Assembly (NCBI GenBank): GCA_965203995.1
Contig: OZ241962.1
Span: 300,453-364,452 of the forward strand
Source: Dehalococcoidia bacterium
Lineage (GTDB): Bacteria; Chloroflexota; Dehalococcoidia; Bin125
DNA length: 64,000 bases
Direction: 5' to 3'
This document shows positions 1,216-54,186 of the stretch, one piece after another. A program made the translations under genes and the position numbers. Positions within the stretch are counted from its first letter, which is position 1. Each line of letters begins with the position of its first letter. The notes under the pieces are model-generated. The model was given only the letters and a program-made list of their open reading frames with translations. It had not been told where the DNA came from and made no database searches.

Positions 1216-2353
1216 GTGGCCGATGTAGCTGAATTGCGCGAGTCGCTGGAGGCCCTGACCGGTCGATTGACCGACATCCTGGAGCGTCTTTGACCTGTCC
1301 GGAGTTGAGGCCGAGATCGCGCGGCTGGAGACCCAGTCGACCGCGCCGGGATTCTGGGACGACGCCGAGCGCGCGCGCTCGGCAATGAAGCGGCTCGCCG
1401 CTCGGCAGCGAACGGTTGAGGTCTGGCGCGGTCTCGAGACGCGGCTGCGCGACGCGGTGGAACTGCTTGAACTCGCCGACGACGAGGAGTTGGCGCAGGA
1501 CCTGGCCAGCGAGGCGCGGACGATCGAAGAGGACTTGGAGCGGCGCTCGTTCGAGCTGGCCTTTTCCGGTCCCTACGATTCGCGGCCTGCCGTGATCTCG
1601 ATCTTCGCCGGCTCGGGCGGTGTCGATTCGCAGGACTGGACCGAGATGCTGCTGCGCATGTACCAGCGCTGGGCCGAGCGCTCCGGCTTCAGCGTCGACC
1701 TGGTCGACATCGTCCAGGGCGACGAGGCGGGGCTGAAATCGGCAACGCTCGAGGTACGCGGGGAGGCCGACGGCGGCGGCGCCTATGGCTGGCTGCGATC
1801 CGAGCATGGCGTCCACCGGCTGGTGCGCATCTCTCCCTTCGACCAGAACCACGCCAGGCACACCTCATTTGCCCGCGTCGAGATCATGCCCGAGACCGAG
1901 GATGCGGCCGAAGTCGAAATCGACGAAGACGACCTCAAGATCGACGTCTACCGCGCCTCGGGCAATGGCGGACAGAATGTACAGAAGAACTCGACCGCGG
2001 TGCGGATCACACACGTGCCGACGGGATTCGTGGTGAGCTGCCAGAACGAGCGCTCGCTCCGGCGCAACCGGGAATCGGCCATGCGCGTGCTTGAAGCGCG
2101 GCTGCTGATGCTGGAAGAGCAGAAGCGCGAAGAAGAGCGCCTGGCGATCCGCGGCGAACACATCGAGGCAGGCTGGGGCAATCAGATCCGCTCCTACGTG
2201 CTGCAGCCGTATCGCATGGTCAAGGACCTGCGCACGCAGCACGAAACGTCGGACACCGACGGCGTGCTGGACGGCGAGATCGGCCAGTTCTTGCGCGCCT
2301 CGTTGAAACACCAGATCGGCCAGGAAGCCCGTGGAGCGGAGGCGGTGGCATGA
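1216..2353 (+). CDS. prfB: peptide chain release factor 2, requires programmed +1 frameshift at 1288-1294
   Basis: GTG at 1216 opens a 25-codon frame-1 ORF (VADVAELRESLEALTGRLTDILERL) ending CTT TGA C. Shifting +1 joins frame 2 (DLSGVEAEIARLE...PGFWDD...). The body carries SPF and GGQ (RASGNGGQNVQK). Confidence 0.95.
1281..1294 (+). promoter_or_regulatory. prfB autoregulatory +1 frameshift site (SD-like GGAG, 3-nt spacer, CTT TGA C)
   Basis: The sequence GGAGCGTCTTTGAC has the same architecture as E. coli AGGGGGTATCTTTGAC. Confidence 0.9.
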
Positions 2354-20721: not shown

Positions 20722-21825
20722 ATGTCCGATCGCGACAACCGAGCCGTCCGCCTCACCGACCTCGCCCGCTGCGGCGGTTGAGGCTCCAAGTTCGGCCCCG
20801 AAGGCCTGGCTCACGTGCTGAGCCATCTCGGACCGCAGTTCCCGCCCGCCGAGCATCCCGAGCTGCTCGTCGGACTCGCGCGCCCCGACGACGCCGCCGT
20901 CTACGCCATCGACGACCAGCGCGCCCTCGTCCAGACCCTCGACTTCTTCGCCCCGCTCGTCGACGACCCCTACCAGTTCGGCGCGATCGCCGCTGCCAAC
21001 GCCATGTCCGACGTCTACGCCATGGGCGGGCGCGTCCTCTTCGCCCTCAACATCGCCGCCTTCCCCGAAGATCTCCCGCCCGACGTCATCGCCGACGTCC
21101 TGCGCGGCGGCGCAGACAAAGTCCGCGAAGCAGGCGCCGTCATCGCCGGCGGACACACGATCATCGACGAGGAACCCAAGTACGGACTCGCCGTCACCGG
21201 CGAAGTCGCCCGCGACCTGATCCGCACCACCGGCGGCGCGCAGCCCGGCGACACCATCATCCTGACCAAGGAAATCGGCACCGGCATCCTGATCGGAGCC
21301 AACCAGCAGGGCGCAGTCTCCGACGAACACTGGAACGCCGCCGTCGACCAGATGATGACCCTCAACCGCGACGCCGCCGAAACCGCCTCCGACCCCGACC
21401 TCGCCCAGGGCGTCCACGCCATCGCCGACGTCACCGGATTCGGACTTGCTGGACACCTGCACGAAATGGCCGAACTCAGCGACGCCGCCATCGAGATCGA
21501 CCTCGGCGCAGCCCCCGCCCTCGGCGGACTCGCCGAAGCCGTCGCCGCCGGATTCGGCTCCGGCGGTCAGTCCCGCAACCGCGAGTACTACGGCGCCCGC
21601 CTCACCATCCACGGCAACCGCGAACTCACCACCTTCGAGGAAGCCCTGCTCTACGACCCGCAAACCTCCGGCGGCCTCCTGATCGCCGCCGGCACCGTCG
21701 AAGCTCCCCACCTCATCCACGAACTCCAACAGCGAGGCGTCACCGCAACCCCCATAGCCCGCGTCAACGAACCCGCCTCCGGCGGACGCCTCAGCGTCAG
21801 TCCGCCCGAGAATCCCCGTGTCTGA
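20722..21825 (+). CDS. selD: selenide, water dikinase with in-frame TGA (Sec) at 20779-20781
   Basis: ATG at 20722 (after CAGGAG) gives MSDRDNRAVRLTDLARCGG-TGA-GSKFGPEG… in the same frame as track ORF 20815..21825. The TGA aligns with the catalytic Cys/Sec of the SelD G-x-G-[C/U]-G-x-K motif. The rest is a PurM-like SelD body. Confidence 0.9.
20808..20824 (+). promoter_or_regulatory. candidate SECIS-like hairpin downstream of the selD TGA
   Basis: GGCTCA-CGTGC-TGAGCC (6-bp stem) starts 29 nt after the TGA. An alternative weaker hairpin lies at 20794-20806. Neither is verified. Confidence 0.35.
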
Positions 21826-40505: not shown

Positions 40506-40790
40506 ATGCAATCCCCGAACCCGGTTCAGCGAGAACTGGCGGCGCTGCTCTTGTCGTACTTCCGCGGCGAGACTTCGATCTCCGAGTATCTCACCTGGGA
40601 AGTGGAATTCACCACGAGCGAGGACGCCACTCTGGATCAGACCCTGACCGGCGATGCTGCCCGCCTGTCCCTGTTGGGTCACGAGTACTTGATGGACGTG
40701 CGTCCGTTGGATGACTTCGATCAAGCGGCGCGGCTGCTGCTTGAGCAGTTGCAACCATCCCCGGCGCCATCTGAAGCCGCAGGCGGTTAG
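40506..40790 (+). CDS. hypothetical small acidic protein (low-GC islet)
   Basis: Strong RBS AAGGAG lies 8 nt upstream of the ATG. 94 aa with no recognisable motif. Confidence 0.5.
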   Translation: MQSPNPVQRELAALLLSYFRGETSISEYLTWEVEFTTSEDATLDQTLTGDAARLSLLGHEYLMDVRPLDDFDQAARLLLEQLQPSPAPSEAAGG

Positions 40791-40831
40791 ACGGCGAGTC
40801 GAAACGACGACCGGCAAGGCGCTCCAGGTCG

Positions 40832-42043
40832 TCACGCCGTTGCCCCCGACTCGCGCAGCGCGCCGATCTCTCCCGCCCCGAACCCGCACTCCGACAGGAC
40901 TTCGTCCGTGTGCTCGCCCAGCCTCGGCGGCGGACGGCGCAGCGACCAGGGCGAGGCCGGCATGATCAGCGGACGGCCGGGCAGCCTCACCTCGCCCAGC
41001 TCCTCGTGATCGACCGTCGACCAGAAGCCGCGATCGCTGAAGTGCGTGTCCTCGAACAGCTCGTCCACCGAGAACAGCGGACCGCAGAGCACCTTCGCCT
41101 CGCGCGCCGCTTCCCAGATCTCGCGCTTGCTGCGCTCCAGAGCCCAGGGCAGGAACATGCCGTTGAACTCGTCGACCAGGTCGGGAATCAGGTTCACGCC
41201 CGGCTGCCACCATTTCTCCTCCTGCAGCCAGTCGGGACGGCCCAACATCTCGTTCAGCCGCGGGATACGGAAGGCGGCGCCCGAGAACTCCACGTAGCCG
41301 TCGGCGCAGGGATAGACGCCCGAGAGCATGCCCGCCGCCGGACCCGGCGCGCGCAGCGATTGCCGCCCGGCGAACTCGTACCCGATCGTCGCTGCGTGAC
41401 GCCGGTCGACCCCGTTGAACTGCGCGTCGGCCATGGAGAAGTCCACGTGCTGCCCCTCGCCCCGCAACTCGGCCGCCGTCAGCGCCGCCATCGCCCCCGT
41501 CGCCGCCGCCGCACCGCACTCGACCAGCGAGGCCGTGCCGTACATCTTGACCGGCTCGCGATCCTGCACCCCGATCGAGTACATCTCGCCGGCGAAGCCG
41601 TAGAGCACGAGGTCCGAGATGCGGTAGTCGCGGTAGGGCGAGTCCTGACCGAACGGCGTGATCGAGACCATCGGCAGATCGCCGCGCAGCGACGACACCC
41701 GCTCCCAGCCGATGCCCAGCGCGTCCAATCGGCCCGCAGGCTGCGATTCGACCACGATGTCGGCGCGCTCGATCAGCCGCTCGATCACCGGCGATGCGTC
41801 CGGATGATCGAGGTCCAGCACCAGCGAGCGCTTGTTGGTATTGAAGTAGAAGAAGGTGCCCGAGCGCTCGGGACCGGGAGTGCCCTGGTACCAGGGTCCG
41901 ACCGCTCGCGACGGATCGCCCCCGGGCGGCTCGATCTTGATCACATCCGCGCCGAAGTCGGCAAACAGCTTGGTGCAATAGGGCCCCGCAATGTGCTCCG
42001 TCAGATCCAGCACCGTCACACCGTCGAGAGGCCCTGAAGTCAT
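40832..42043 (-). CDS. family III CoA-transferase
   Basis: Start MTSGPLDGVTVLDLTEHIAGPYCTKLFADFGADVIKIE at 42043. …LGEHTDEVL… The track ORF extends spuriously to 43414. Confidence 0.9.
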   Translation of the reverse strand: MTSGPLDGVTVLDLTEHIAGPYCTKLFADFGADVIKIEPPGGDPSRAVGPWYQGTPGPERSGTFFYFNTNKRSLVLDLDHPDASPVIERLIERADIVVESQPAGRLDALGIGWERVSSLRGDLPMVSITPFGQDSPYRDYRISDLVLYGFAGEMYSIGVQDREPVKMYGTASLVECGAAAATGAMAALTAAELRGEGQHVDFSMADAQFNGVDRRHAATIGYEFAGRQSLRAPGPAAGMLSGVYPCADGYVEFSGAAFRIPRLNEMLGRPDWLQEEKWWQPGVNLIPDLVDEFNGMFLPWALERSKREIWEAAREAKVLCGPLFSVDELFEDTHFSDRGFWSTVDHEELGEVRLPGRPLIMPASPWSLRRPPPRLGEHTDEVLSECGFGAGEIGALRESGATA

Positions 42044-42091
42044 GGCCCAGAGTCTACTTGCGACTGGTAGCGTTGAGCCGAGGAGACGCGC

Positions 42092-42349
42092 ATGACTACG
42101 AGAAGCGTCCGCGCCCGATTCCGCAACGGCGTCCTGGAGCCGATCGATCCCGTCAACCTCACTGAGGAGCAGGTAGTGCTCCTGACTTTTGACGACCAGA
42201 CGGCGCGTCGCACACCCGACACGAACGAGCTCTACAAGTCGGCCGGCGCCTGGGCCGGGCAGTTCGACGACCATGAACAGCTGATTCGAGACATCTACCA
42301 GGCCCGCATCGACGGCACCCCTCCATCGAGGCGACCCTGGCCCACATGA
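42092..42349 (+). CDS. DUF104/AF2212-like antitoxin family protein (no cognate toxin adjacent)
   Basis: N-terminus …RARFRNGVLEPIDPVNLTEEQVVLLTF… matches the DUF104 antitoxin signature. Confidence 0.65.
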   Translation: MTTRSVRARFRNGVLEPIDPVNLTEEQVVLLTFDDQTARRTPDTNELYKSAGAWAGQFDDHEQLIRDIYQARIDGTPPSRRPWPT

Positions 42350-42375
42350 GCCTCTGAGGCCGGCGGCATGGACGA

Positions 42376-43806
42376 TCATGTGTCGGTCATCAGGGCGGCG
42401 CGGCCGAACTGGAGGGGCGTGTTCTTGATCCGGCGGGGCCTGAAGATTCTCGGCCGCTGGGCGAGTTCGTGCATGTAGCGATCGGCGTCGAGCAGATCGT
42501 CGAGCTTCTTCACCGGCCTGGGACTCGCGCCCGACTCCTGCGCCCAGCGGTACTCGCGCATCCGCTCCGGGAACCGCTCCAGGGTGGGCGCGTAGAACGA
42601 ACGCGGCGGGTCGGCGGCCAGCCGGTCCTGCACCAGCGAGATGCCCCAGGCGACCGAGCCGTCGCCGCCGCGGCTGGGCACGACGTCGATCCCCTGGCGG
42701 CGCTGATGGTCGATCCAGGCGCCCTGCGAGCGGTCGGCGCACCAGCGGATGCGGCCGAAGACCTGGCGGCAGCGCCGCTGCCACTGCTCCAGGCGCTGGA
42801 TCACGCCCTCGCCGCGCTCCTCGAACTCGTCCAGCCGGATTAGCACGTTGGGACCGCAGGCGGCGCGCGAGTCGGTGATCCCGGCCACGATCCCGGCGGT
42901 GTAGTGCGCGTCCTCCGACGGTCCGCCGAAGTCCAGCCCGCCGGCGTAGCGGACGAAGGGCGGCAGCGGGCCGCTCCAGCGGTGCAGCCGGGGCTGGAAG
43001 CGTGCGTAGACTTGCCCGGCGAAGGCGTCGAAGCTGCCCTCGATGAAGCGCTCGACCCATTCGCCCCGGTGCAGGGCGCGCTGCTGCTCGGCGTAGTTGG
43101 CCGGCAGGTGCGGGTTGTCGGCGATCCGCGCCGGGACGAAGACGACGCGGCCCTCTGCCAGCGCCAGCGACTGTTCGTCCAGCTCGCGCCGCACGAACCA
43201 GCGCTCGAACCAGCCCGGCCAGGGATTCGAGGCGGCCACGAACCAGCGCTGCTCCTGCGCCGGATGCCGCAGCCGCGTCAGCAGCATCTGCGCCGCCTCC
43301 TCCGCCACCTCCCCGGCTTCGTCGATCAGGACCGCGCCGTACTGCTGGGAGCCGAGGCCGGTCCAGTCGGAGAGATGGCGGAAGTTGACGGTGGACACCT
43401 GGCCGGCGGACCACTTGGGCATGGCGAGCTGGACAAGGTTGGTGGGCTGCTGCTGGCGGCGGCGGATGAACTCGGGCGGGCAGGCGGCGAAGAACTCGCG
43501 CATGGTGGTGGCGGAGAGATTGGTGAAGTCGTCACGGGCGACGAGCACGTTGTTGCCCGGGTGCATGAGGGCCGCGTCGATGGCGAGTTCGACGATGGCC
43601 CGCGTCTTGCCGCCACCCATGGCTCCGCCATACCCGACCAAGGCGAGGCCGGGCCTGGGGGCCAGGTTGAGCGCGTCGTACAGCTCGCGCTGCCGTGCCG
43701 TAGGAAAAAAACTGCGGAGGCCGTGGAGCGGGTGGCGCCCCTCAGCCCCGACCTCTCCCTCAGAGGGAGAGGAGGGATGCGGATTAGGGTGGTTCGTCGT
43801 CGTCAT
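42376..43806 (-). CDS. terL: phage terminase large subunit
   Basis: Walker A …GGAMGGGKTRA…, Walker B-like …AVLIDEAGE…, and a C-terminal nuclease-domain pattern. N-terminal codons 5-18 are encoded by a family-A repeat. Confidence 0.88.
   Translation of the reverse strand: MTTTNHPNPHPSSPSEGEVGAEGRHPLHGLRSFFPTARQRELYDALNLAPRPGLALVGYGGAMGGGKTRAIVELAIDAALMHPGNNVLVARDDFTNLSATTMREFFAACPPEFIRRRQQQPTNLVQLAMPKWSAGQVSTVNFRHLSDWTGLGSQQYGAVLIDEAGEVAEEAAQMLLTRLRHPAQEQRWFVAASNPWPGWFERWFVRRELDEQSLALAEGRVVFVPARIADNPHLPANYAEQQRALHRGEWVERFIEGSFDAFAGQVYARFQPRLHRWSGPLPPFVRYAGGLDFGGPSEDAHYTAGIVAGITDSRAACGPNVLIRLDEFEERGEGVIQRLEQWQRRCRQVFGRIRWCADRSQGAWIDHQRRQGIDVVPSRGGDGSVAWGISLVQDRLAADPPRSFYAPTLERFPERMREYRWAQESGASPRPVKKLDDLLDADRYMHELAQRPRIFRPRRIKNTPLQFGRAALMTDT
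43752..43792 (-). repeat. family-A-like repeat spanning the terS stop and terL N-terminus
   Basis: CCTCTCCCTCAGAGGGAGAGGAGGGATGCGGATTAGGGTGG on the + strand. Confidence 0.6.
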
Positions 43807-44170
43807 TGCTGCTCCCGTCTTCGTCTTCGGTTTCCGACTCCGACTCGGTGGTCGGTTCGCTCTCGCTGGTGCAGGCGCTGAACATGGAGAGGTCGGTCAG
43901 GTCGACGCCGTCGAGCGCTTCGCAGCGTTCGTAGAACTCGCGAGCCGCGGGGTCGAGGTGCAGGTCGGCCTGCTGGGCGAACCTCTCGGCGGTGAGCCGG
44001 GCGATCTGCTTGCCCTGCTCGTAGAGGCCGGTGATGCGAGCCATCATGCCCAGCGCCTTGATGCGGACGTGCGAGGGTCCATTTGCGGCTTCGTGGGCGA
44101 TGCCGGCCCTGATGGCGTCGGCGGTGTAGGGGACGGGCGGCTTGGGCTGAGTGATTGCGGTGTCGGACAT
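43784..44170 (-). CDS. terS: phage terminase small subunit
   Basis: 128 aa. …VRIKALGMMARITGLYEQ… is typical of P27-type small terminases. Acidic S/E/D tail. Directly upstream of and overlapping terL. Confidence 0.65.
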   Translation of the reverse strand: MSDTAITQPKPPVPYTADAIRAGIAHEAANGPSHVRIKALGMMARITGLYEQGKQIARLTAERFAQQADLHLDPAAREFYERCEALDGVDLTDLSMFSACTSESEPTTESESETEDEDGSSNDDDEPP

Positions 44171-44278
44171 CGGGTGAACTCCTGTTCCTGGTTGTGTCAG
44201 GAGATCGATTGTATGTGAACGGGTGTTCGGCGGGGGATGGTGGTGTGTTGTCGGGTTGACTTGGGGTGTTGCCAGAAG

Positions 44279-44398
44279 GCCCTCTCCCTCGGGGAGAGGG
44301 GATCGGAGGGCCGTTGAGGTGTAAACGAGGGTGTTCCTTCTTGCGGAGATGGAGGTCTGGGCCCCGCGTCGGGGCGCGGGGCGACGGAGGGAGTGGGG
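44279..44398 (+). repeat. composite repeat (family A followed by family C), left flank of the nuclease gene
   Basis: CCCTCTCCCTCGGGGAGAGGGGA…TTCTTGCGGAGATGGAGGTCTGGGCCCCGCGTC…GCGCGGGGC. Same order and orientation as 45390-45540. Confidence 0.8.
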
Positions 44399-45344
44399 CT
44401 ATTCGAGGGTGATCAGGACGGTGTCGTTGGCGACGATGATGAAGTCGGTCGAGCCGGGGACGACGCGGCCGCCTGCTTCGGCGTAGGCGAGCCAGCGGGC
44501 GCCGCTCCACTTCCATAGCGCGACGACGCCGTGCTCGGTCACGAGGGAGAAGAGATAGGCGGCGGTCCAGTGCGGGGTTGATTCGAGTGAGGGAGGGGGG
44601 ACGGAGTCCGACGGCTCGCCGGTGCGGGCGCTGCGGATCGAGACGGGCGATGTTGACGTGCTGGACTGGCTGTCCTGATCGACCGCGGCGGCGGCGCAGT
44701 TGCCGGCCAGGGCCGCGTCGTTGGCCAGGCGCTCGGCCGGATCGATCGAGAGTCCGTACTTGGCCTTGACCTGGATGGTGACCAGGGCGATGTGCTTGCG
44801 CTGGGCGCAACTGCCGCCGCGCCATTCGGCCAGATCGTGGTCGGACTTGCTGATGTTGAGGCCGGCCAGCAGGCACCATTGATTGAGGGGATCGTTGGCG
44901 AACTGGCGCTTGCGGGCGGCGGTCCAGGTCGAGGCGCTGGAGTCGTAGGCCTCCTTGAGGGCGACGATGTGGTCGACGTGTTCGGCGGAGGTGCAGCCGA
45001 GGCGGGCGCGGGCGGCGCTGGAGTCGTAGCTCCAGTTGTCGCGGTCGTAGCCGGTGGAGGCGCCGGAGCCGCTGCCTGAGGTTCCTGTCGAGGTACCGGG
45101 CCAGAGCGGGTTGGCTTCGCAGCCGACGCCGTCTCCGTCGCCGTCATGTCCATGACCATCGGTGACCTTGTAGGGGTAGTGGCTGGCGCAGTTGCCGTCG
45201 GCCGAGACATGCGCTACCCCCCCCCCCGCTTAACGGTGCGTTTACAAACACTGCGAGTGCGGCGACCACCGCGGCGGCGACGAGCCATGCGAGGCGAACG
45301 GCGCCGGGTCTGGGGGTGTTTGCGCGTGCGTGGGTGGTGGTCAT
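44399..45344 (-). pseudogene. secreted Excalibur/HNH(DUF1524-like) nuclease interrupted by a poly-G(11) frameshift
   Basis: The signal peptide MTTTHARANTPRPGAVRLAWLVAAAVVAALAVFVNAPLS-GGG runs into the G11 tract. With G10 the frame continues VAHVSADGNCASHYPYKVTDGHGHDGDGDGVGCE…GYDRDNWSYDS…EHVDHIVALKEAY…LNISKSDHDLAEW… to TAG at 44399. Confidence 0.8.
45217..45227. repeat. homopolymer tract C11 (+) / G11 (coding strand)
   Basis: Counted directly: …GCGCTA CCCCCCCCCCC GCTTAA…. Confidence 0.95.
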
Positions 45345-45389
45345 GTGGCGCTCCGGTCGAATTCGGGAATAGGAGGCAATGGGCGCAGA

Positions 45390-45540
45390 GCCCTCACCCT
45401 AACCCTCTCCCTCGGGGAGAGGGGACCGAGCAGACGCTGAGGTGAGGCTGAGGGTCCGCGTTCTTGCGGAGATCGAGGTCTGGGCCCCGCGTCCCCTGTT
45501 CAAGCCAGGGCCCCGCCTGCGCGGGGCCGACTTAATCATC
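45390..45540 (+). repeat. composite repeat (family A followed by family C), right flank of the nuclease gene
   Basis: GCCCTCACCCTAACCCTCTCCCTCGGGGAGAGGGGACC…TTCTTGCGGAGATCGAGGTCTGGGCCCCGCGTC…GCGCGGGGCC. Confidence 0.8.
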
Positions 45541-45579
45541 GACGCACGCGCAAGAGGCCCTGGGGCGCAACCGGAGCGA

Positions 45580-46326
45580 TCAGCCCGACTCGGCGAGGTC
45601 TGTGACGAGGTCGATCAGGGCGTCGGCGGCGGAGGGGGCTCGCTGGCCGTTGACGGTGATCGCGGGAGTGCTGCTGAGACCGTTGGCGACGGCGTCGAGA
45701 TGCTGGTCGTAGATGCGGTCGATGTGGGTGCGGTCGTCGATGCACTGGGCGAACTGGCCGGTGTCGAGGCCGAAGTCGGCGGCGATCGCGACGGCGCCGT
45801 CGCGGGTGTAGGCCTCGCGGCCGGGGCGGGCGAAGTAGTGGTCGTGGAACTCCCACCAGTGGTCCTGGTCGCCGGCGCACTCGGTGGCGAGCGCGGCCAT
45901 CTCCGAGCTGACGCCGTGGTTGATGATGTGGCGGTACTCGAATCGGGCGAGTCCGGTGGCGATCAGTTCTTGCTCGATGCGCGGCCCAACCTGGGTCGCG
46001 AAGTGGCGGCAGCCGCCTCAAAGGAAGTCGGAGTACTCGGTGATCAGGATGGGCGCGTCGGGGCTGCCCAGCGTGGCGCGGCCGCGTACGACCTGGACGC
46101 GCGGCTGTTCCTCGGCCTGGGCGAGCTGAGCGGACTGGGCGGACTGGGCGGACTGCGGATCGCCGGCCTGGTAGGCCTGCGGCTGCTGCGATTGCGCGGC
46201 CGAGGGCTGGGACTGCGAGTCGCCGCCGCACGCGGCCGCGAGCAGGGCGCCCGCTACAAGCGCCGCTGCGAACACCGTCATGTGCCTGCTGAGTCTGGTG
46301 AGCCTGGCAAGTCTGGTGAGCATCAT
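45580..46326 (-). CDS. DsbA-family thiol:disulfide oxidoreductase with signal peptide, putative selenoprotein (U-G-G-C; TGA at 46018-46020)
   Basis: Joins track ORFs 46018..46641 (C-terminal part) and 45580..45900 in one frame (747 nt). …ILITEYSDFL-TGA-GGCRHF…ECAGDQDHWWEFHD…STPAITVNG…. Confidence 0.78.
45981..45999 (-). promoter_or_regulatory. candidate SECIS hairpin (GCGACCC-AGGUU-GGGCCGC)
   Basis: Starts 18 nt after the TGA. The loop AGGUU is conserved with the paralogues. Confidence 0.5.
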
Positions 46327-47069
46327 CCACCTTCTTCCGACTGGGCGGCCTCGGCCGCGGCTTTGACCTGATCGAGGATCGCGTTGACCGAGCGTCCGCC
46401 GGGCCGTCCGTTGATGTGGAAGGTCGGGGTGCCTTCGACGCCCTCGGCGATCGCCTGCTGCTGCATCTGCAGGATGCGGTCGCGGTGTTCCTGGTTGTCG
46501 ATGCACTGGGTGAAGCGGGCGACGTTGAGGTCCTGGTCGCGGGCGAGGTCGATGGCGCCGGCGCGGGTGAAGCTGCGCGCCTGGGCGCGGAGCAGGTAGG
46601 CGTCGTGGAACTGCCACCAGGCGCCCTGGTCGCCGGCGCACTCGGTGGCCAGGGCGGCGAACTGGGAGGCGGGGCCGAAGACGATGAAGTGGCGGTACTC
46701 GTAGCGGGCGAGTCCGGTGCGAATCGCTTCTTCGATGATCAGCGGCTCAAACTGAGCCGCGAAACTGCGGCAGCTTGGTCACTGGAAGTCGGAGTACTCG
46801 ACGATCAGGACGGGCGCGTCGGGATCGCCGACGACGTTGCGGGTGAAGGGCAGGCCCTCGCGGTGTCCGAAGGTGATCTCGGCGGGGATGTCGAACTCGA
46901 GGCCGGACTGGCCGGCGGCGCTGTCCTGCTGCTGCATGATCGAGGCCTGGCGGTACTGTCGCTCGCTGCGCGGGGTGTCGCCGGTGGAGGGCGCGCCGCC
47001 CGAGCCGCAGGCGGCGATCAGGACGGCGGCCACGGCCGCGATCGCCAGCAGGCAGAGGGAGCGGGTCAT
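46323..47069 (-). CDS. DsbA-family thiol:disulfide oxidoreductase lipoprotein, putative selenoprotein (U-P-S-C; TGA at 46779-46781)
   Basis: MTRSLCLLAIAAVAAVLIAAC|GSGG lipobox. …LIVEYSDFQ-TGA-PSCRSF…ECAGDQGAWWQFHD…GTPTFHINGR… 747 nt in one frame. The stop overlaps the next gene's ATG (ATGA). Confidence 0.8.
46742..46760 (-). promoter_or_regulatory. candidate SECIS hairpin (GCGGCUC-AGUUU-GAGCCGC)
   Basis: 7-bp stem starting 18 nt after the TGA. Confidence 0.5.
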
Positions 47070-47114
47070 GCATCGAGCGTACTCCAGATGGGCCGGCGGG
47101 GAGGGGCGAAGGCG

Positions 47115-47876
47115 TTACTCGCCGGCTGCGGCGGCGGACTCGACGGCGGACTTGATCTCTTCCCAGACGGGGTCGACGCGGACGCCGTCGACGAAGACGG
47201 TAGGCGTGGCCTGGACGCCGCGCTGGCCGCCTTCCTCGTAGGAGGCGCTGACGATCGGGAAGGTCTCGCCGTTCTCGACGCAGGCCCAGAAGCGGTCGGC
47301 GTCAAGTCCTTCAAAGGTGGCCTGGCGGTTGAGGCCGAGCTCGGTGAAGAGCGTCTCGTCGCCGGCCATGAACCGATCGTGGAAGGGCCAGAAGGCGCCC
47401 TGCTCGGCGGCGCACTCGACGACGACGGCGGCAAAGACCGAGTCGTCGCCGAGGACGGGCATGTGGCGGAACTCGAAGCGGGCGATGCCGGTGGCGACGA
47501 ACTGTTCCAGGATCTGCGGCTCAACCTGAGCCGAGAATTGCTGGCAGAACGGTCAAGTGAAGTCGCCGTAGTACTCGATCAGGACAGGCGCGTCGGGCTC
47601 GCCGAGCAGGTTGCGCTGGCTGCGCAGTCCCTTGTGCTCGCCGACGGCGTCGGTCGGCAGTGGGTCGGTCCGGGCATCGTCCTGGACTTCGGGCTGGGGC
47701 TGTTCGGCCGCGGCGGACTGCGCAGGCTGCGGCTGTGCCTGCTGCTGGGAAACGGTCGCCTCGCGCTCGGCGCGCTGGGAGGTCTGGGTGGCGGTCGATG
47801 GCGGCGAGTCGTCGCCGGAGCCGCAGGCGATGACGAAGGCGGCAACCAGAACCAGGCCCGCAAGCAGGGATCGCAT
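47115..47876 (-). CDS. DsbA-family thiol:disulfide oxidoreductase lipoprotein, putative selenoprotein (U-P-F-C; TGA at 47553-47555)
   Basis: MRSLLAGLVLVAAFVIAC|GSGD lipobox. …LIEYYGDFT-TGA-PFCQQF…ECAAEQGAFWPFHD…ATPTVFVDG… 762 nt in one frame. Confidence 0.8.
47517..47533 (-). promoter_or_regulatory. candidate SECIS hairpin (CGGCUC-AGGUU-GAGCCG)
   Basis: 6-bp stem starting 19 nt after the TGA. Confidence 0.5.
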
Positions 47877-47950
47877 GGAGTCAGCCTATCGCGGCCGGTT
47901 CTCGCGTCAGGACTGGCGCCGACACCCGCGTCCAGGTGAGCGCAGCGCTA

Positions 47951-48367
47951 TCAGAGGCGGACCAGCGGACGCTCAGGCGATTCCGGGCGCGGAGTGAGCG
48001 TCTGGCTGGTGCAATCAGCGATCAAGTCCAATCGCTCCATCACAATCTGCCCGACCAGCGCGTCTGCTCCGGTTGGCACGATGATGCACTCAGTGGACAT
48101 CGAACGGTCCCCGATGCGAATCGACAGCGGCCCCGCTACCGGCAGCGACTCCCGGCGACCGTCCGCGTACCTGGCGATGATGCTGTCCACGTGCTCCAGC
48201 CCGAGCTGATCGACGACATCTTCCGGAAGCGCCAACATCATCGCGCCGGTATCTGCAACTGCCGGGATACGAGCTTGCCTCACTTCGGACTCGTCGAGGT
48301 ATCCGCCCTCGTGGAACGACCGGTCCCGCGAGTTCTCCAATTCGATCTGTACGACGATCTCACCCAT
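47951..48367 (-). CDS. retropepsin-like (clan AA) aspartic protease
   Basis: Start MGEIVVQIELEN at 48367. DTGA active-site motif (AVADTGAMMLALP). 138 aa. Confidence 0.72.
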   Translation of the reverse strand: MGEIVVQIELENSRDRSFHEGGYLDESEVRQARIPAVADTGAMMLALPEDVVDQLGLEHVDSIIARYADGRRESLPVAGPLSIRIGDRSMSTECIIVPTGADALVGQIVMERLDLIADCTSQTLTPRPESPERPLVRL

Positions 48368-48417
48368 GACATCCCCACTCGACTTTCCCGGTGTCTGGGC
48401 CCAGCGTAGCAAGGTGC

Positions 48418-50121
48418 TTACCCGCGGAGGCGGGACATCTCGTCGCGGAGCTGTTGCAGGCTCATGGGGCCGAGGTCGAGGGCGGCCTGGTGGAAACTCT
48501 TGAGGTCGAAGGCGTCGCCGAGGGAGTCGCGGGCGGCCTCGCGGGCGGCGAGCCACTCTCGTTCGCCGACCTTGTAGGAGATCGCCTGGCCGGGCCAGCC
48601 GAGGTAGCGGTCGACCTCGCTGGCGAGCATCTGCTCGGGGAAGAAGGAGCGCTCGATGAGGAAGGGCAGGGCGAGCTCGGGGGTCCAGGTCTCGCCGCCG
48701 TGGTAGGGCTCACGCTCGGGGATCGGCAGTTCCAGGTGCATGCCGATGTCGATCACGACGCGGACGGCTCGCAGCGCCTGGCTGCTGAGCAGACCCATGT
48801 AGTAGGCCGGGTCCTCGAGGTAGCCGAGTTCGGCCATCAGCCGTTCGGCGTAGAGCGCCCAGCCCTCGACGTAGCCGGAGGTACCGGCCAGCAGTCGCTG
48901 ATAGCGGGTGAGCTGATCGCCGAGGTAGCGGGTCGTGCCGATCTGCAGGTGGTGTCCGGGAACGCCCTCGTGGTAGCAGACGGAGAGTTCGCGCCAGAGC
49001 GGGAAACGGGTGGCGCCGCCGGTCGGATACCAGGTCCGGCCGGGACGCGAGAAGTCCTCGGAGGGTCCGGTGTAGTACATGGCCAGCGCGCCGCCGGGCG
49101 GGGCGATCATCGCCTCGATCCGCTGGACGGGGTCGGCGATGTCAAAATGCGTGCCCAGCAGCGCCTGCATCGTCTGGTCCTGGGTCTGCTGCATCCAGTC
49201 GCGAAAGGCGTCCTCGCCCTCGATCGCGCGCTCGTCGTCGGATTCGAGCATGGCGATCGCCTCGGCGACCGTCGCGCCAGGCGAGATCCGTTCGGCGGTC
49301 TCGGCCATCTCGGACTGGATGCGCCAGACCTCTTCCCAGCCCCACTGGTAGGTCTCGTCGAGGTCCAGCTCGATCCCGTTGAAACCGCGCGAGGCGGCCT
49401 GGTAGCGGTCGCGGCCGACCGGGTCGCGGAGGTTGGCCCTGGGCAGATACTCGGTCTCGAGCCAGTTGGCCATCGCGGCATAGCCCTGCTCGGCGGCGAC
49501 GGCCTGCTCGCCGCCGTCGATGCCGAGCGAGTCGCAGAGTTGTTGGAAGAACCCCCCCTCTGCCTTCGGCATCTCCCCCCCAGAGGGGGGGAGAGAGGAA
49601 CGGGATTGTCCGGACCAGACGCGGCACTGCTCGATGCCGCCGCGGACCTGGCGCTGGGCGACGACGATGCCCTGCTCCATGCCGGCGGCCAGCGAGGATC
49701 GGTAGCGGTCCAGGGCCTCGGGCACCGCGCCCATGCGCTCGACGAGGCGGGCCTGGTCTTGCTCGGTCTCGCGGGGCATGAGGTCGAAGACCTGGCGCGT
49801 GTTCTGCAGCGGCGAGGCGAGGATGTTGAGCGAGCGCAGGTGCTCCTGCTGCGCTTCCAGTTCGGCCTCATAGGCGAAGCGCTCCAGCATTACGTCGCGG
49901 GCGACTCGGTCGCGCTCGGTCTCGACCTCGACGCGGCGCAGTGCCGCCTCCGCGGCGCGGCGGACGTCGGCGCGCTGTTCGTGGCCGTCGGGCGAGTAGT
50001 CGGTCAGCTCGGTCTCGCGGCCGGGGATGCCCAGCGACGTGGCCAGGTTTGGATGCGCGGCGGCGAGCGCGTCCACGTACCAGTCGGAGATGGCCGATAC
50101 CGAGTCGAGTTCGTTGCTCAT
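48418..50121 (-). CDS. DUF885-family protein, carries an in-frame family-B repeat insert
   Basis: Start MSNELDSVSAISDWY at 50121. …YHEGVPGHHLQ… is the signature of DUF885. Confidence 0.82.
   Translation of the reverse strand: MSNELDSVSAISDWYVDALAAAHPNLATSLGIPGRETELTDYSPDGHEQRADVRRAAEAALRRVEVETERDRVARDVMLERFAYEAELEAQQEHLRSLNILASPLQNTRQVFDLMPRETEQDQARLVERMGAVPEALDRYRSSLAAGMEQGIVVAQRQVRGGIEQCRVWSGQSRSSLPPSGGEMPKAEGGFFQQLCDSLGIDGGEQAVAAEQGYAAMANWLETEYLPRANLRDPVGRDRYQAASRGFNGIELDLDETYQWGWEEVWRIQSEMAETAERISPGATVAEAIAMLESDDERAIEGEDAFRDWMQQTQDQTMQALLGTHFDIADPVQRIEAMIAPPGGALAMYYTGPSEDFSRPGRTWYPTGGATRFPLWRELSVCYHEGVPGHHLQIGTTRYLGDQLTRYQRLLAGTSGYVEGWALYAERLMAELGYLEDPAYYMGLLSSQALRAVRVVIDIGMHLELPIPEREPYHGGETWTPELALPFLIERSFFPEQMLASEVDRYLGWPGQAISYKVGEREWLAAREAARDSLGDAFDLKSFHQAALDLGPMSLQQLRDEMSRLRG
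49552..49597 (-). repeat. family-B palindromic repeat inside the DUF885 CDS (translated SLPPSGGEMPKAEGGFF)
   Basis: The reverse complement CTCTCTCCCCCCCTCTGGGGGGGAGATGCCGAAGGCAGAGGGGGGG shares a 27-nt core with 36301-36347. Confidence 0.8.
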
Positions 50122-50346
50122 CGTGTGTCCCGTTTCATGAGTTGAGTTCCTTGCGAGTGACAGTTTCGCATCCAATGTGAAGTCGGGCGTTGTGGGTGTT
50201 GAGACCTCGGACTGTCCACAACATCCACAGGTCATACACGATTGGCGTGGAATTTCGGGCACAGAAGACGGCTTGAAGGCGCCACCCGCACATGCTTTCT
50301 GCTAATGTTGAACGTTCATTCGGGCGGACACAGTTGAGAGGAACGG

Positions 50347-52398
50347 ATGATGACGACGATGACGGCGACGGCGGGCAGGGAAGAGCCCGCGTACGAGGAG
50401 GAGCCGGGGCGGATTGCGGCCCGGACGCTGAGCGAGGCGGACCTGAACCACATGCTGGGACAACTTGGCGGCGGACGCTCGGCGTCGCGCGGCGCGTTGA
50501 GCCGGTTCTCGGCATTGCACGACAAGATCCGGGAGCGCGAGACGCACCTGTACAACTCGAAGCAGGCCAACCCGCGGTTTTCTCCACCCTACAAGGAGGC
50601 GGAGCCGTGGCAGACGGACCTGTTGCGGCGCACCTGGTCGCAGTTGCGGCAGCGGCTGACCGAGCATCCGCTGCGGGTGCACGTCGAACCGCCGGACGAC
50701 TCGCCCTCGGCGCGGGAGGCGGCCGACAACCTGGAGCACGTGCTGGAGCAGGGTCTGCGTTATGTCGAAGATCGGACGCACCTGTCGCTGCAGGCCGACC
50801 TGGGCTACGGACAGGTCTGCCTCTGCTTCGGCGTCCTGCACTGGCAGCAGGCGCAGCACCGGATGCCGGTGTTTCCGGCGCGTGAGCAGCGCGGTTCGCG
50901 GCCCGAGGATGCGGAGGATCGGCGGCGTTTCCGCCGGGCGCGCTCGGAGGACGGTCCCTCGCTGCCCTGGATTGAGACGGAGGAGAGCCGCCGCGATCGC
51001 GACCGCCAGCGGCAGGCGGCGGCCGGTTTTCCCTGGGACATCGAGGTGATCCGGCCGGATCAATTCGCGTTCGTCGAGGATCATGGCTCGGGCAACGGCC
51101 TGGGACTGGCCGTAGTGCTGCGCGAGGTGGGCCTGTTCGAGTACCGCAACCGGCTGCGGGAGCAGGACCGGCTGGCGCTACAGATGACCGCGGTGGCGGG
51201 CGAACCGTCGCTGCGGATCGCGCGGGCGGTGGACGCGCCGCTGCCGGAGGAACCCTCGGGCGCGGGCTGGGGCGAGCGTCTGCGGGTCGCCTCGGTCTGG
51301 ACGCGCGACGAGTACTACGAGCTGGCGGCGCTGGAGCGGCCGTCCCGCTCGGCGAGCAGATCGGACGAGCACCTGCGTCACGAGTGGACGCTGATCAAGT
51401 CGCATCCGCATCCCTACGAGATGCCGCCGTTCGCAATCGCGGAGGCGGACACGAACGATCACTCCGACATGGTGCGGCGCTGGGAGCCGACGCTGGAAGG
51501 CATCTACCGCGCCAAGCCGCGCTACGACTTCGAGCGATCGCTGGGCCACTTCCTGGCCGAACAGACGGCGACTCCGCTGTACTGGGTGCAACTGGCGGAC
51601 GGCACCTATGAGACCGACGCGAACGGCCAACGGATCGAGCTGACGCCCAGCGGCGCAGAAACGATCGAGCTGCCCGCCGGGGCGTCGCTGCACCGGGTGG
51701 AGTTCCAGGTCGCTCCGGCGTTCGTCGAGTTCCTGCGCATGTCGCACGAGGAGTTGCTCAGCGCGGCGCCGGACGCGGGCACGGTCGATCGGGGCGAGAT
51801 TGGCCCGAACACGCAGCCGCACACGCTGAACCTGCTGCTCGGTTCGCGCAACCTGCAGGTGCAGCAGCTCAAGCGGGCGCAGACCCGGGCGGCGCGGACG
51901 ATGCTGCGCAACATGGCGCTGGTGATGTCCAAGCCGCTCTCGGAGGGCGGCTTCGGCGCGCCGGTCTGGGTCTTTGCCAAGGGCAAGAACGGCCGGCTGC
52001 AGCGGCGCGAGACGGTCTGCGTCGAGCCGTCGCAGATCCCCTCGCTGGAGATCGACGTCTGGATCGACCCCTACTCGTCGGCGCAGCGGATCGCGGTGCA
52101 GGAACACGGACGGGCGCGGCTCAACGACCCGCTGGATCCGCTCGACCAGCGCGGCTACCTGGAGGAGTACATCGGCGAAGAGCACGCGGAGCAGGTGCTG
52201 GCCCGGCATCGGCAGTGGCGGATGGAGCAGGCGCGCTTCGAGCGCGAGCTCTCGCGGGCGCGCGGCGTCGACCCGCCCAAGCCGCAGACGAGGCCGGCGG
52301 GCGGTCCCGACGTGCCGGCGTCGAGCCGCCTGCGGGGCGAGCTCGCACCGCTGGGACGGCTGGTCTCGGCGGACGACGACCGCACGGCGAGCCCGTGA
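50347..52398 (+). CDS. phage portal-like protein (tentative)
   Basis: 683 aa, with size and charge pattern like P22/T7-type portals. It is the only large phage-like gene missing from the terminase-capsid series. The family was not verified. Confidence 0.45.
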   Translation: MMTTMTATAGREEPAYEEEPGRIAARTLSEADLNHMLGQLGGGRSASRGALSRFSALHDKIRERETHLYNSKQANPRFSPPYKEAEPWQTDLLRRTWSQLRQRLTEHPLRVHVEPPDDSPSAREAADNLEHVLEQGLRYVEDRTHLSLQADLGYGQVCLCFGVLHWQQAQHRMPVFPAREQRGSRPEDAEDRRRFRRARSEDGPSLPWIETEESRRDRDRQRQAAAGFPWDIEVIRPDQFAFVEDHGSGNGLGLAVVLREVGLFEYRNRLREQDRLALQMTAVAGEPSLRIARAVDAPLPEEPSGAGWGERLRVASVWTRDEYYELAALERPSRSASRSDEHLRHEWTLIKSHPHPYEMPPFAIAEADTNDHSDMVRRWEPTLEGIYRAKPRYDFERSLGHFLAEQTATPLYWVQLADGTYETDANGQRIELTPSGAETIELPAGASLHRVEFQVAPAFVEFLRMSHEELLSAAPDAGTVDRGEIGPNTQPHTLNLLLGSRNLQVQQLKRAQTRAARTMLRNMALVMSKPLSEGGFGAPVWVFAKGKNGRLQRRETVCVEPSQIPSLEIDVWIDPYSSAQRIAVQEHGRARLNDPLDPLDQRGYLEEYIGEEHAEQVLARHRQWRMEQARFERELSRARGVDPPKPQTRPAGGPDVPASSRLRGELAPLGRLVSADDDRTASP

Positions 52399-52423
52399 GC
52401 GCAAACTGGGAAGGGAGGCGGAG

Positions 52424-52630
52424 ATGACACTGGAACACGAGATTCGCTGTACGAACCAGGAATGTCCCAGCCGGACACACACGGCAGGCGAGGGGCACGG
52501 GGGACGCGGGGCGCTGGCCTGCCGGGTCGAGGACCACGCGACGCACGTCACGATCGTCTGGAAGTGCCGGCGCTGCAAGCAGGGCCAACGCACGCCGCTG
52601 CCGAAGTCGGCTGACCGTCCGGACGGCTAA
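52424..52630 (+). CDS. small zinc-ribbon protein
   Basis: RBS GGGAGG. 68 aa with CxxxxC…CxxC (CTNQEC…CRRC). Confidence 0.5.
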   Translation: MTLEHEIRCTNQECPSRTHTAGEGHGGRGALACRVEDHATHVTIVWKCRRCKQGQRTPLPKSADRPDG

Positions 52631-52633
52631 CGG

Positions 52634-53776: not shown

Positions 53777-53797
53777 ACGTCGGAGTGTATGGCCCGA

Positions 53798-54070: not shown

Positions 54071-54186
54071 GGGTCGAGGATACTGTCTCGGGCGGAGCCG
54101 CCGTGGCGGCTGCACCGAGCCAGGGAGTCGTGTAGCATACGCAAAACCCGTATGCGGAACTCCCCGCCAACCTCTGGAGTGTTTTG

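What the first reader, a model, noticed from the sequence alone, without database searches (positions are those of the whole stretch)
45580..47876. Three tandem DsbA-family genes, each with TGA exactly at the first Cys of CxxC: a probable triple UxxC selenoprotein array
Three adjacent minus-strand paralogues (248, 248 and 253 codons) each start with a signal peptide. Two have canonical lipoboxes (LIAAC|GSGG, FVIAC|GSGD). All three carry DsbA hallmarks: YSDF/YGDF immediately before the redox motif, ECAGxQ…W.FHD, and the cis-Pro T-P-[AT]…NG.

In every copy the ORF track breaks at a TGA precisely where the N-terminal Cys of CxxC belongs:
- SDFL-TGA-GGC (46018-46020)
- SDFQ-TGA-PSC (46779-46781)
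- GDFT-TGA-PFC (47553-47555)

In each case the same frame then stays open for ~145 more codons to the real stop, giving totals of 747, 747 and 762 nt, all divisible by 3.

Each TGA is followed 18-19 nt later by a 6-7 bp hairpin with an AGGUU or AGUUU apical loop (45981-45999, 46742-46760, 47517-47533). That is the spacing and G/U-containing loop expected of bacterial SECIS elements.

TGA is a genuine stop for many other genes here, and RF2 with its own UGA frameshift site is present, so wholesale codon reassignment is unlikely. Standard pipelines would split or pseudogenise all three genes. Three exported Sec-containing DsbA paralogues in a row is unusual.
Basis: partly seen in the sequence, partly recalled or inferred. 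Interest (0 to 1): 0.85.

Follow-up and report, generated by a model that had tools for sequence, protein, structure and literature searches.

The report
Tandem selenocysteine DsbA lipoprotein genes
Three neighbouring genes for exported disulfide-bond enzymes each almost certainly encode selenocysteine at a UGA "stop" in their active site; the enzyme type is already known, but such multi-copy arrays, shared by a whole group of mostly sponge-associated Dehalococcoidia, are stored in public databases only as broken fragments.

Summary
Three minus-strand genes (47876-47115, 47069-46323, 46326-45580) are DsbA/Thioredoxin_4 lipoproteins. Each has an in-frame TGA exactly where 32 full-length Cys homologues have the first Cys of CxxC.

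In 72 related loci, mostly Dehalococcoidia MAGs, 128 copies carry TGA at this position and 10 distant ones carry TGC/TGT. Downstream sequence evolves as coding. 55 of 113 copies end in a genuine TGA stop.

A hairpin (GCGGCUCA-GGU-UGAGCCGC) 18-19 nt after the UGA is under RNA-level selection:
- Rare codons are fixed (GCU, GUU).
- It is 90% paired, against 26-38% in slid controls.
- Three kinds of compensatory change occur.
- Cys forms lack it.

The window's selD is itself Sec-type, with a similar hairpin. RF2 carries its UGA frameshift site. SelA, SelB and tRNA-Sec could not be located in array-bearing genomes because the searches saturated; other Chloroflexota have them.

Verdict: genuine UxxC selenoproteins, confidence about 0.9. 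UxxC DsbA-like and DsbG-like selenoproteins have been known since 2005, at roughly one per genome. The arrays of up to four, plus a fifth copy elsewhere, and their universal mis-annotation are new. This is a new member of a known kind, of moderate interest.

The parts
47115..47876 (-). Paralogue type A: Sec-containing DsbA/Thioredoxin_4 lipoprotein, 253 codons, lipobox FVIAC|GSG, active site U-PFC, stop TAA
47553..47555 (-). In-frame TGA (Sec codon) of type A
47517..47533 (-). SECIS-like hairpin of type A: CGGCUCA-GGU-UGAGCCG, 7 bp
   Evidence: z -2.3
46323..47069 (-). Paralogue type B: Sec-containing DsbA lipoprotein, 248 codons, lipobox LIAAC|GSG, active site U-PSC, real stop TGA overlapping the next start
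46779..46781 (-). In-frame TGA (Sec codon) of type B
46742..46760 (-). SECIS-like hairpin of type B: GCGGCUCA-GUU-UGAGCCGC, 8 bp
   Evidence: z -2.6
45580..46326 (-). Paralogue type D: Sec-containing DsbA lipoprotein, 248 codons, lipobox LAAAC|GGD, active site U-GGC, real stop TGA
46018..46020 (-). In-frame TGA (Sec codon) of type D
45980..46000 (-). SECIS-like hairpin of type D: CGCGACCCA-GGU-UGGGCCGCG, with a C-G pair replacing U-A and one A.C mismatch
20722..21825 (+). selD (selenophosphate synthetase), Sec-type. TGA at 20779-20781 aligns with E. coli Cys17. Hairpin GGCUCA-CGUGC-UGAGCC at 20808-20824.
1216..2353 (+). prfB (RF2) with programmed +1 frameshift at CUU-UGA-C (1288-1294). Shows UGA is read as stop in this organism.
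48418..50262 (-). DUF885 gene, immediately upstream of the array on the same strand in 30 of 35 loci. Conserved neighbour of unknown role.

Best explanation
The three genes are intact genes for extracytoplasmic, lipid-anchored thiol-disulfide oxidoreductases of the monoderm DsbA type (relatives of MdbA and BdbD). In each, the nucleophilic first residue of the CxxC motif is selenocysteine (UxxC).

Proposed steps:
1. During translation the internal UGA is recoded. A hairpin that begins 18-19 nt downstream, inside the reading frame, acts as a bacterial SECIS. It would recruit SelB carrying Sec-tRNA(Sec) to the ribosome in competition with RF2.
2. UGA codons without such a hairpin still terminate. 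These include the real stops of two of the three genes.
3. The full-length pre-protein is exported, lipidated at the lipobox Cys and tethered outside the membrane. There the U-x-x-C centre exchanges selenenylsulfide and disulfide bonds with substrate proteins.

The paralogues (types A, B, D here; also C and E in relatives) differ in the x-x dipeptide (PF, PS, PN/GN, GG), the main tuner of redox potential in this fold. They share a homologous SECIS. They therefore probably arose by duplication of an already Sec-containing ancestor and then specialised.

Shown: the gene anatomy, UGA-to-Cys homology, coding constraint beyond the UGA, RNA-level selection on the hairpin, dual use of UGA, and a Sec-type selD in the same window.
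Inferred: SelB binding, actual Se incorporation, export and lipidation, redox direction and substrates.
For: 1. U aligns with the first Cys. The TGA column aligns with the invariant first Cys in 32 full-length homologues, and the second Cys, the W of the WxFHD motif and the T-P cis-proline loop are also invariant. The alignment to solved MdbA reads FSDFE-C-PFC against YSDFQ-U-PSC.

2. Recurrence. 113 TGA against 7 TGC/TGT in the array-type copies. A further 15 TGA and 3 Cys occur at second loci. These come from more than 40 assemblies made with different technologies.

3. Translation continues past the UGA. Pfam Thioredoxin_4 spans the UGA. The part after U is always 142-157 aa. Divergence at codon position 3 far exceeds positions 1 and 2 in all four paralogue types.

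4. SECIS.
- Fixed offset. Mean MFE is -14.2 kcal/mol, against -5.8 for control windows in the same genes and -0.8 to -7.0 in the Cys forms.
- Codons 7-12 are nearly frozen: GCU 76 of 78 Ala and GUU 69 of 70 Val. Genome-wide these codons are 3% and 4%.
- 90.3% of cells are paired, against 26-38% in slid controls. Pair 27-35 takes U-A 81, C-G 19 and G-C 2 and is never broken. Pair 29-33 takes A-U 90 and G-C 5. There are 38 double-change cells against 10 +/- 2.6 in shuffles, 0 of 500.
- The first loop base, G, is invariant.
- Sub-families with other peptides (FARGAAP, FAADAGRQ) carry different hairpins at the same place.

5. UGA has two meanings. 55 of 113 of these genes end in TGA. RF2 has its UGA frameshift site. 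Only these three sites show an open in-frame coding TGA in the window scan, and SelD's fourth recoded TGA was found separately.

6. Selenium pathway. selD in the window has TGA at the Cys17 position. So do all 20 closest relatives, including those from array-bearing chromosomes. Its hairpin has the same stem arms and its own compensatory change. selD and the array are syntenic, 25-30 kb apart.

7. The Sec trait exists in the phylum. SelB was found in 80 Chloroflexota loci, SelA in 7 and tRNA-Sec in 3.
Against: - selA, selB and tRNA-Sec were not found in the window, in the array flanks or in the selD flanks of this clade. Neither broader SelB scan returned an array-bearing genome.
- No curated Rfam family matches the hairpins.
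- Type D's hairpin alone is not more stable than shuffled sequence (z 0.08).
- The compensatory changes represent only about three or four independent events.
- Part of the hairpin's sequence is also constrained by a Q-x-E-P peptide that Cys homologues such as MdbA share.
- No redox partner (DsbB, VKOR, CcdA) is adjacent.
- No sequence analysis can distinguish Sec from Cys insertion at the UGA.
Confidence: 0.9

Rival explanations
1. The UGA is recoded with the help of the hairpin, but to cysteine or another standard residue rather than selenocysteine. One route would be a non-canonical tRNA-Cys with a UCA anticodon delivered by SelB. The products would then be ordinary CxxC DsbA proteins and a Cys-type SelD.
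For: Nothing in the sequence data distinguishes Sec from Cys at the site. Cys forms of both families are functional elsewhere. SelA and tRNA-Sec were not located in this clade. [quoted passage not shown] I could not read it, so its details rest on my recollection.
Against: A single TGA-to-TGY change would give Cys at no cost. Maintaining UGA plus a hairpin in 128 copies and in selD therefore implies a benefit that Cys does not give. selD, whose only role is to activate selenium, is conserved at 81-93% identity among the closest 16 relatives. Known UxxC DsbA-like proteins are accepted selenoproteins.
Confidence: 0.05
2. The TGAs are real stops. Each locus yields a short N-terminal lipoprotein of about 100 aa, with or without a separately initiated C-terminal fragment, or the genes are pseudogenes.
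For: This is how all public pipelines have read them. Databases hold only C-terminal pieces of 136-150 aa and N-terminal pieces of 136-167 aa. RF2 is present.
Against: The stop falls inside the Trx-fold domain, at the catalytic residue, in every copy. Both halves are under purifying selection with codon-position bias. There are no other disruptions in 128 copies. No in-frame start is conserved after the TGA: the next ATG lies 31, about 105 and 40 codons downstream in the three window genes. The C-terminal piece would lack a signal peptide and the nucleophile. The conserved hairpin would have no purpose.
Confidence: 0.02
3. UGA is reassigned genome-wide to a sense codon (as in Mycoplasma or Gracilibacteria), or the TGAs are sequencing or assembly errors.
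For: None beyond the presence of in-frame TGAs.
Against: At least ten Pfam-supported genes in the window end at TGA with full-length domain matches. 55 of 113 of the DsbA genes themselves stop at TGA. RF2 keeps its UGA autoregulatory frameshift. Only four recoded TGAs exist in 64 kb. The same TGA recurs in more than 40 independent assemblies.
Confidence: 0.01

Closest known systems
DsbA-like and DsbG-like (COG1651) UxxC selenoproteins of Zhang and Gladyshev (Sargasso Sea 2005, bacterial genomes 2006, GOS 2008; Peng et al. 2016; review 2026)
   Same: DsbA-family thioredoxin-fold domain. Sec replaces the first Cys of CxxC. There is an in-ORF bacterial SECIS with a conserved G in the apical loop. 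The family is marine-enriched.
   Different: Published counts are about one per genome: 45 proteins in 41 organisms. Here there are up to four in tandem plus a fifth elsewhere. The copies here are Thioredoxin_4 (MdbA/BdbD-type) lipoproteins in Dehalococcoidia. Neither of the two papers I term-searched for the lineage, the 2026 review and Peng et al. 2016, mentions Chloroflexi or Dehalococcoidia, and I found no paper describing the arrays. I could not compare directly with the reference accession NIP15863.1.
MdbA (Actinobacteria; PDB 4PWP/4PWO), BdbD (Bacillus subtilis; 3EU3) and M. tuberculosis DsbA-like proteins (4K6X, 4IHU)
   Same: These are the best sequence matches among solved structures (E 2e-14 to 6e-6). 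They share the ...SDF-x-C-P-x-C...Q-x-EP... motif and the G-T-P cis-proline loop, and are membrane-tethered or extracytoplasmic in monoderm bacteria.
   Different: All of those use Cys-x-x-Cys. None is a selenoprotein, and they are single genes rather than arrays. That their partner is VKOR or BdbC is my own knowledge; no such partner is adjacent here.
E. coli fdhF-type bacterial SECIS with SelB recoding
   Same: A hairpin lies within the ORF just 3' of the UGA, with G and U in a small apical loop. UGA is read as stop elsewhere in the same cell.
   Different: The sequence is unrelated. The stem here is a near-perfect 7-9 bp helix with a triloop and no bulged U. SelB binding is untested. No Rfam model matches.
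Sec-type selenophosphate synthetase (SelD)
   Same: The window's SelD has U at the position of E. coli Cys17, as in many Sec-decoding bacteria. SelD is the second most common bacterial selenoprotein.
   Different: It is not part of the array. It serves here as independent evidence of the Sec trait, and its hairpin stem resembles the DsbA hairpins.

Membership tests
DsbA / Thioredoxin_4 (PF13462, PF01323) thiol-disulfide oxidoreductases | The family profile matches the whole thioredoxin-fold domain with its helical insert | tested here: met
   Thioredoxin_4 profile positions 7-164, 6-148 and 6-150 of 165, E 2e-28 to 3e-21. All span the TGA.
DsbA / Thioredoxin_4 (PF13462, PF01323) thiol-disulfide oxidoreductases | C-x-x-C redox motif and cis-proline loop | tested here: met
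   the U-x-x-C column is invariant C-x-x-C in 32 homologues and in MdbA. The T-P loop is invariant.
DsbA / Thioredoxin_4 (PF13462, PF01323) thiol-disulfide oxidoreductases | Extracytoplasmic location (signal peptide or lipobox) | tested here: met
   a lipobox L-[AS]-[AG]-C follows a hydrophobic N-terminus in 3 of 3 window genes and in 102 of 113 relatives. This is a motif match only; no signal-peptide predictor was available.
DsbA / Thioredoxin_4 (PF13462, PF01323) thiol-disulfide oxidoreductases | Three-dimensional DsbA fold of the joined protein | not tested
Bacterial selenoprotein gene (Sec-decoding trait) | In-frame UGA aligned with Cys in homologues, with a conserved ORF on both sides | tested here: met
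Bacterial selenoprotein gene (Sec-decoding trait) | SECIS: a hairpin shortly 3' of the UGA with a conserved G in the apical loop, under RNA-level selection | tested here: met
   The distance from the UGA to the loop is 26 nt.
Bacterial selenoprotein gene (Sec-decoding trait) | selD in the same genome | tested here: met
   selD at 20722-21825, itself Sec-type.
Bacterial selenoprotein gene (Sec-decoding trait) | selA, selB and selC (tRNA-Sec) in the same genome | tested here: inconclusive
   They are absent from the 64-kb window and from the clade loci I hold. The collection scans saturated at 600 and 120 rows without sampling an array-bearing genome. All three are present in other Chloroflexota.
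Bacterial selenoprotein gene (Sec-decoding trait) | Selenium actually incorporated at the UGA | not testable with these tools
   Needs mass spectrometry or 75Se labelling.
Rfam curated SECIS families | Covariance-model match at or near the gathering score | tested here: not met
   no SECIS family hit even at E up to 10. The library has no model for this hairpin type, so this does not bear on function.

The most novel reading that the evidence does not exclude
This clade may decode SECIS-marked UGA by a non-canonical route. It might insert Cys or another residue through a divergent tRNA and SelB pair. Alternatively it might use Sec machinery so divergent or so differently organised that standard probes miss it. 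In that case the up-to-five DsbA paralogues and SelD would form a small, dedicated recoding regulon rather than ordinary selenoproteins. My evidence does not exclude this, because no selA, selB or selC was recovered from any array-bearing genome.
Probability: 0.05. Interest if true: 0.8.

Novelty: new member of a known kind. Interest (0 to 1): 0.42.

Why it matters
1. Annotation. Every public copy of these genes is stored as two meaningless fragments: about 50 C-terminal clusters plus N-terminal pieces. This affects more than 40 MAG species, many from marine sponges. A simple rule would repair them: TGA, 18-19 nt, then GCGGCUCA-GNY-UGAGCCGC inside a Thioredoxin_4 frame.

2. Biology. An uncultured, host-associated Chloroflexota lineage appears to place up to five selenoproteins outside the cytoplasmic membrane. 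That would be a large investment in selenium for extracytoplasmic redox chemistry, which could mean oxidative folding, disulfide isomerisation or defence against host-derived oxidants. The published average for this family is about one copy per genome.

3. Method. The array is a natural experiment on SECIS evolution within coding sequence. Synonymous changes compensate for amino-acid changes across the stem, and the paralogues keep one SECIS while varying the x-x dipeptide.

None of this overturns current understanding.

Tried and rejected
- Exact look-up of the window's N-terminal fragment in public assemblies found nothing on record.
- ARAGORN on the window, 60 array loci and 80 selD loci found no tRNA-Sec in the clade.
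- E. coli SelA and SelB tblastn against the window and clade loci gave no hit.
- A SelB domain II-III alignment scanned against genomes gave 80 Chloroflexota SelB loci, none from array genomes.
- A generic tRNA-Sec core pattern was trialled on viral contigs to learn the cap. It saturated at 120, so I ran no further search on tRNA-Sec.
- Rfam gathering and permissive scans found no SECIS family.
- RNAalifold on the 102-sequence alignment recovered only the inner 4 bp. The full 9-bp stem was tested by explicit pair counting instead.
- A scan for the clade's hairpin core downstream of any open in-frame TGA in 1.19 Mb found only DsbA and SelD.
- A search for a conserved redox partner next to the arrays found only DUF885 consistently linked.
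- The promoter and terminator consensus scan found nothing.
- PMC6103700 is not held.
- The odd tRNA at 24462 was considered as a possible UGA decoder and rejected. It has no UCA anticodon and is absent from relatives.
Full report
**Observation.**
The minus strand between 45580 and 47876 holds three adjacent reading frames.
- Gene A runs 47876..47115, gene B 47069..46323 and gene D 46326..45580.
- Each is interrupted once by TGA: at 47553-47555, 46779-46781 and 46018-46020.
- Each continues in the same frame for 145-151 more codons.
- All three begin with a hydrophobic N-terminus and a lipobox: FVIAC|GSG, LIAAC|GSG and LAAAC|GGD.
- Read through, each matches Pfam Thioredoxin_4 across almost the whole profile (E 2e-28, 3e-27, 3e-21), and also DSBA. 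The match spans the TGA.
- The motifs at the interruption are U-PFC, U-PSC and U-GGC.
- Gene B's TGA stop overlaps gene D's ATG.

**Is the TGA at the redox cysteine?**
Yes. In an alignment with 32 full-length Cys-containing homologues, the TGA column is the invariant first Cys of CxxC. The other invariant columns are the second Cys, the W of the WxFHD motif and the T-P cis-proline loop. The nearest solved structures are the monoderm extracytoplasmic oxidoreductases: MdbA/DsbA (4PWP), BdbD (3EU3) and the M. tuberculosis DsbA-like proteins. The residue-level alignment to MdbA reads FSDFE-C-PFC against YSDFQ-U-PSC.

**Relatives.**
- A scan of one genome per species returned 72 loci, nearly all Dehalococcoidia or Chloroflexota MAGs. 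Many have sponge-type bin names, and several are closed chromosomes.
- Among array-type copies, 113 carry TGA at this position and 7 carry TGC or TGT.
- A fifth paralogue type (EYGDPF-U-PNC) at a separate locus adds 15 more TGA copies. Three further Cys forms come from Actinobacteria and Anaerolineales.
- Arrays hold one to four copies in a conserved A-B-C-D order. The window has A-B-D.
- The part after U is always 142-157 aa.
- Divergence between orthologues downstream of the hairpin is concentrated at codon position 3. In type D it is 0.29, against 0.10 and 0.05 at positions 1 and 2. So that region is translated and under purifying selection.

**The hairpin.**
A stem-loop starts 18-19 nt after each UGA, with consensus GCGGCUCA-GGU-UGAGCCGC.

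*Folding.* Two of the three window copies fold better than shuffles (z -2.3 and -2.6). The third does not (z 0.08).

*Comparison across all 113 Sec forms.* Mean folding energy at the fixed offset is -14.2 kcal/mol. Control windows in the same genes give -5.8. The seven Cys forms give -0.8 to -7.0.

*Is it only a by-product of the AQVEP peptide?* No, for three reasons.
1. Synonymous variation collapses in codons 7-12: GCG 94 of 97, GCU 76 of 78 Ala, GUU 69 of 70 Val, GAG 84 of 85, CCG 106 of 107. Flanking codons vary freely, for example TGC/TGT 72/35. GCU and GUU make up only 3% and 4% of Ala and Val codons in this genome.
2. On a gap-free alignment of 102 distinct sequences, 90.3% of cells in the 9-bp stem are paired, against 26-38% when partners are slid by 1-3 columns.
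   - Pair 27-35 takes U-A (81), C-G (19) and G-C (2), and is never broken.
   - Pair 29-33 takes A-U (90) and G-C (5).
   - 38 cells change on both sides, against 10 +/- 2.6 in shuffles (0 of 500).
   - In each case a synonymous change on one arm compensates for an amino-acid change on the other. Examples are CAG..UUU to CGG..UUC, and GCU..GAG to GCG..GCG.
   - These amount to only about three or four independent events.
3. Sub-families with unrelated peptides (FARGAAP; FAADAGRQ in Anaerolineales) carry different hairpins at the same offset, one of them a perfect 7-bp stem with a GGG loop.

*Other points.* The first loop base is an invariant G. No Rfam family matches. Part of the sequence is also peptide-constrained, because MdbA has Q-T-E-P at the same place.

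**UGA has two meanings in this organism.**
- RF2 is present with the classical CUU-UGA-C +1 frameshift at 1288-1294.
- At least ten Pfam-supported genes in the window end at TGA.
- 55 of the 113 DsbA genes end at TGA, including two of the three here.
- A scan for in-frame TGAs flanked by 50 codons of coding-type GC3 on each side finds only the three DsbA sites, plus one antisense artefact at 60448.

This excludes codon reassignment. The recurrence across independent assemblies excludes sequencing error.

**Selenium pathway.**
- The window encodes selD (20722-21825). Its TGA at 20779-20781 aligns with catalytic Cys17 of E. coli SelD.
- All 20 closest SelD relatives have the same TGA. These include the copies on array-bearing chromosomes.
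- selD lies 25-30 kb from the array on the same contigs.
- Its downstream hairpin, GGCUCA-CGUGC-UGAGCC, shares the DsbA stem arms. It shows its own compensatory change to GGCGCA..UGCGCC.
- The hairpin core combined with an open in-frame TGA picks out only DsbA and SelD in 1.19 Mb of clade DNA.

**What I could not show.**
selA, selB and tRNA-Sec are not in the window or in the clade loci I hold. SelB lies beside selD in more distant Dehalococcoidia. A SelB scan found 80 Chloroflexota loci, 7 with SelA and 3 with tRNA-Sec. The point is open, not negative.

**Surroundings.**
- DUF885 lies directly upstream on the same strand in 30 of 35 loci.
- No DsbB, VKOR or CcdA-type partner is adjacent.
- In the window, the DUF885-plus-array block is inverted relative to its flanking genes.
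- No consensus promoter or terminator was found.

**Comparison with what is known.**
- UxxC DsbA-like (COG2761) and DsbG-like (COG1651) selenoproteins were described from the Sargasso Sea in 2005. They were described again in bacterial genomes in 2006 and in GOS in 2008, and are listed in a 2026 review.
- Peng et al. 2016 counted 45 such proteins in 41 organisms.
- So the kind is known. What I did not find described is tandem arrays, the Dehalococcoidia lineage, or the lipoprotein MdbA/BdbD-type subfamily. The two papers I term-searched for the lineage (the 2026 review and Peng et al. 2016) mention neither Chloroflexi nor Dehalococcoidia, and a wider search found no paper describing the arrays.
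- Public protein databases hold only fragments. The 49 closest hits are 136-150 aa C-terminal pieces. N-terminal pieces have no domain call. Full-length proteins appear only at 48% identity or below.

**Verdict.**
These are almost certainly genuine selenoprotein genes (confidence about 0.9).
- The main residual alternative is insertion of Cys rather than Sec at the same signal. Sequence data cannot exclude that.
- Novelty is modest: new members of a known selenoprotein family, with an unusual lineage-specific tandem expansion and systematic mis-annotation.

Noticed in passing
window 24462-24536 (-): A tRNA-like gene (Rfam tRNA, 47.8 bits). ARAGORN reads it with an 8-nt anticodon loop UUCGCAAC ('anticodon cgca'). 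It has discriminator U and an encoded CCA. It is absent from the syntenic selD flanks of 20 relatives. It sits at the edge of a lower-GC stretch (24-26 kb, GC 0.59) next to a TPR protein gene. It could be a quadruplet-type or degenerate tRNA on an inserted element.
   Followed up: partly
window 20722-21825 (+): selD is itself a selenoprotein gene. TGA at 20779-20781 aligns with E. coli Cys17, and a hairpin GGCUCA-CGUGC-UGAGCC lies at 20808-20824. The same holds in all 20 closest relatives, with a compensatory U-A to G-C change.
   Followed up: yes
window 1216-2353 (+): prfB (RF2) has the classical programmed +1 frameshift site CUU-UGA-C at 1288-1294.
   Followed up: yes
L039, L043, L045, L050-L058, L060, L062, L063 (match near position 6001 in most): A fifth Sec-containing DsbA paralogue type (EYGDPF-U-PNC...ATQVEP) lies at a separate chromosomal locus in at least 15 of the array-bearing genomes. 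Some genomes therefore carry five Sec-DsbA genes. The window's genome probably has one outside the window.
   Followed up: partly
window 39000-54500, compared with L001-L038: The DUF885-plus-array block is inverted in the window relative to its flanks: terminase-like gene 42376-43806, 683-aa ORF 50347-52398 with no Pfam hit, and RecF-like gene 52634-53776. The comparison is with 27-30 relatives. The type C paralogue is also missing here.
   Followed up: partly
window 42376-43806 (-): A phage terminase large-subunit homologue lies just downstream of the array. A homologue is also present near the array in 11 relatives, so it may be a conserved prophage remnant or a GTA-like element rather than a recent insertion.
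   Followed up: no
L033:10760, L036:6904, L042:6370, L044:6076; L066:6124, L068:6064: Two further Sec-DsbA sub-families (YGDFQ-U-PGC...FARGAAP in Dehalococcoidia; YSDFQ-U-PFC...FAADAGRQ in Anaerolineales) have hairpins of unrelated sequence at the same offset from the UGA. The closest Cys form (L067, CPYC...FAEVEP) has none.
   Followed up: partly
Viral contigs L235-L354: A generic tRNA-Sec core pattern (CCGGTG-N8-GG-N-CTTCAAA) matched more than 120 IMG/VR viral contigs. Many matches lie at both contig ends as terminal repeats, which is consistent with tRNA-Sec being a common prophage attachment site.
   Followed up: no
L080:19376-19533: A 40-nt tandem repeat is miscalled by ARAGORN as three overlapping tRNA-Arg genes.
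   Followed up: no
window 11030-12991 (+): An EF-G paralogue of 653 aa (GTP_EFTU, EFG_III, EFG_IV, EFG_C). It is the only translational GTPase in the window and is not SelB.
   Followed up: no
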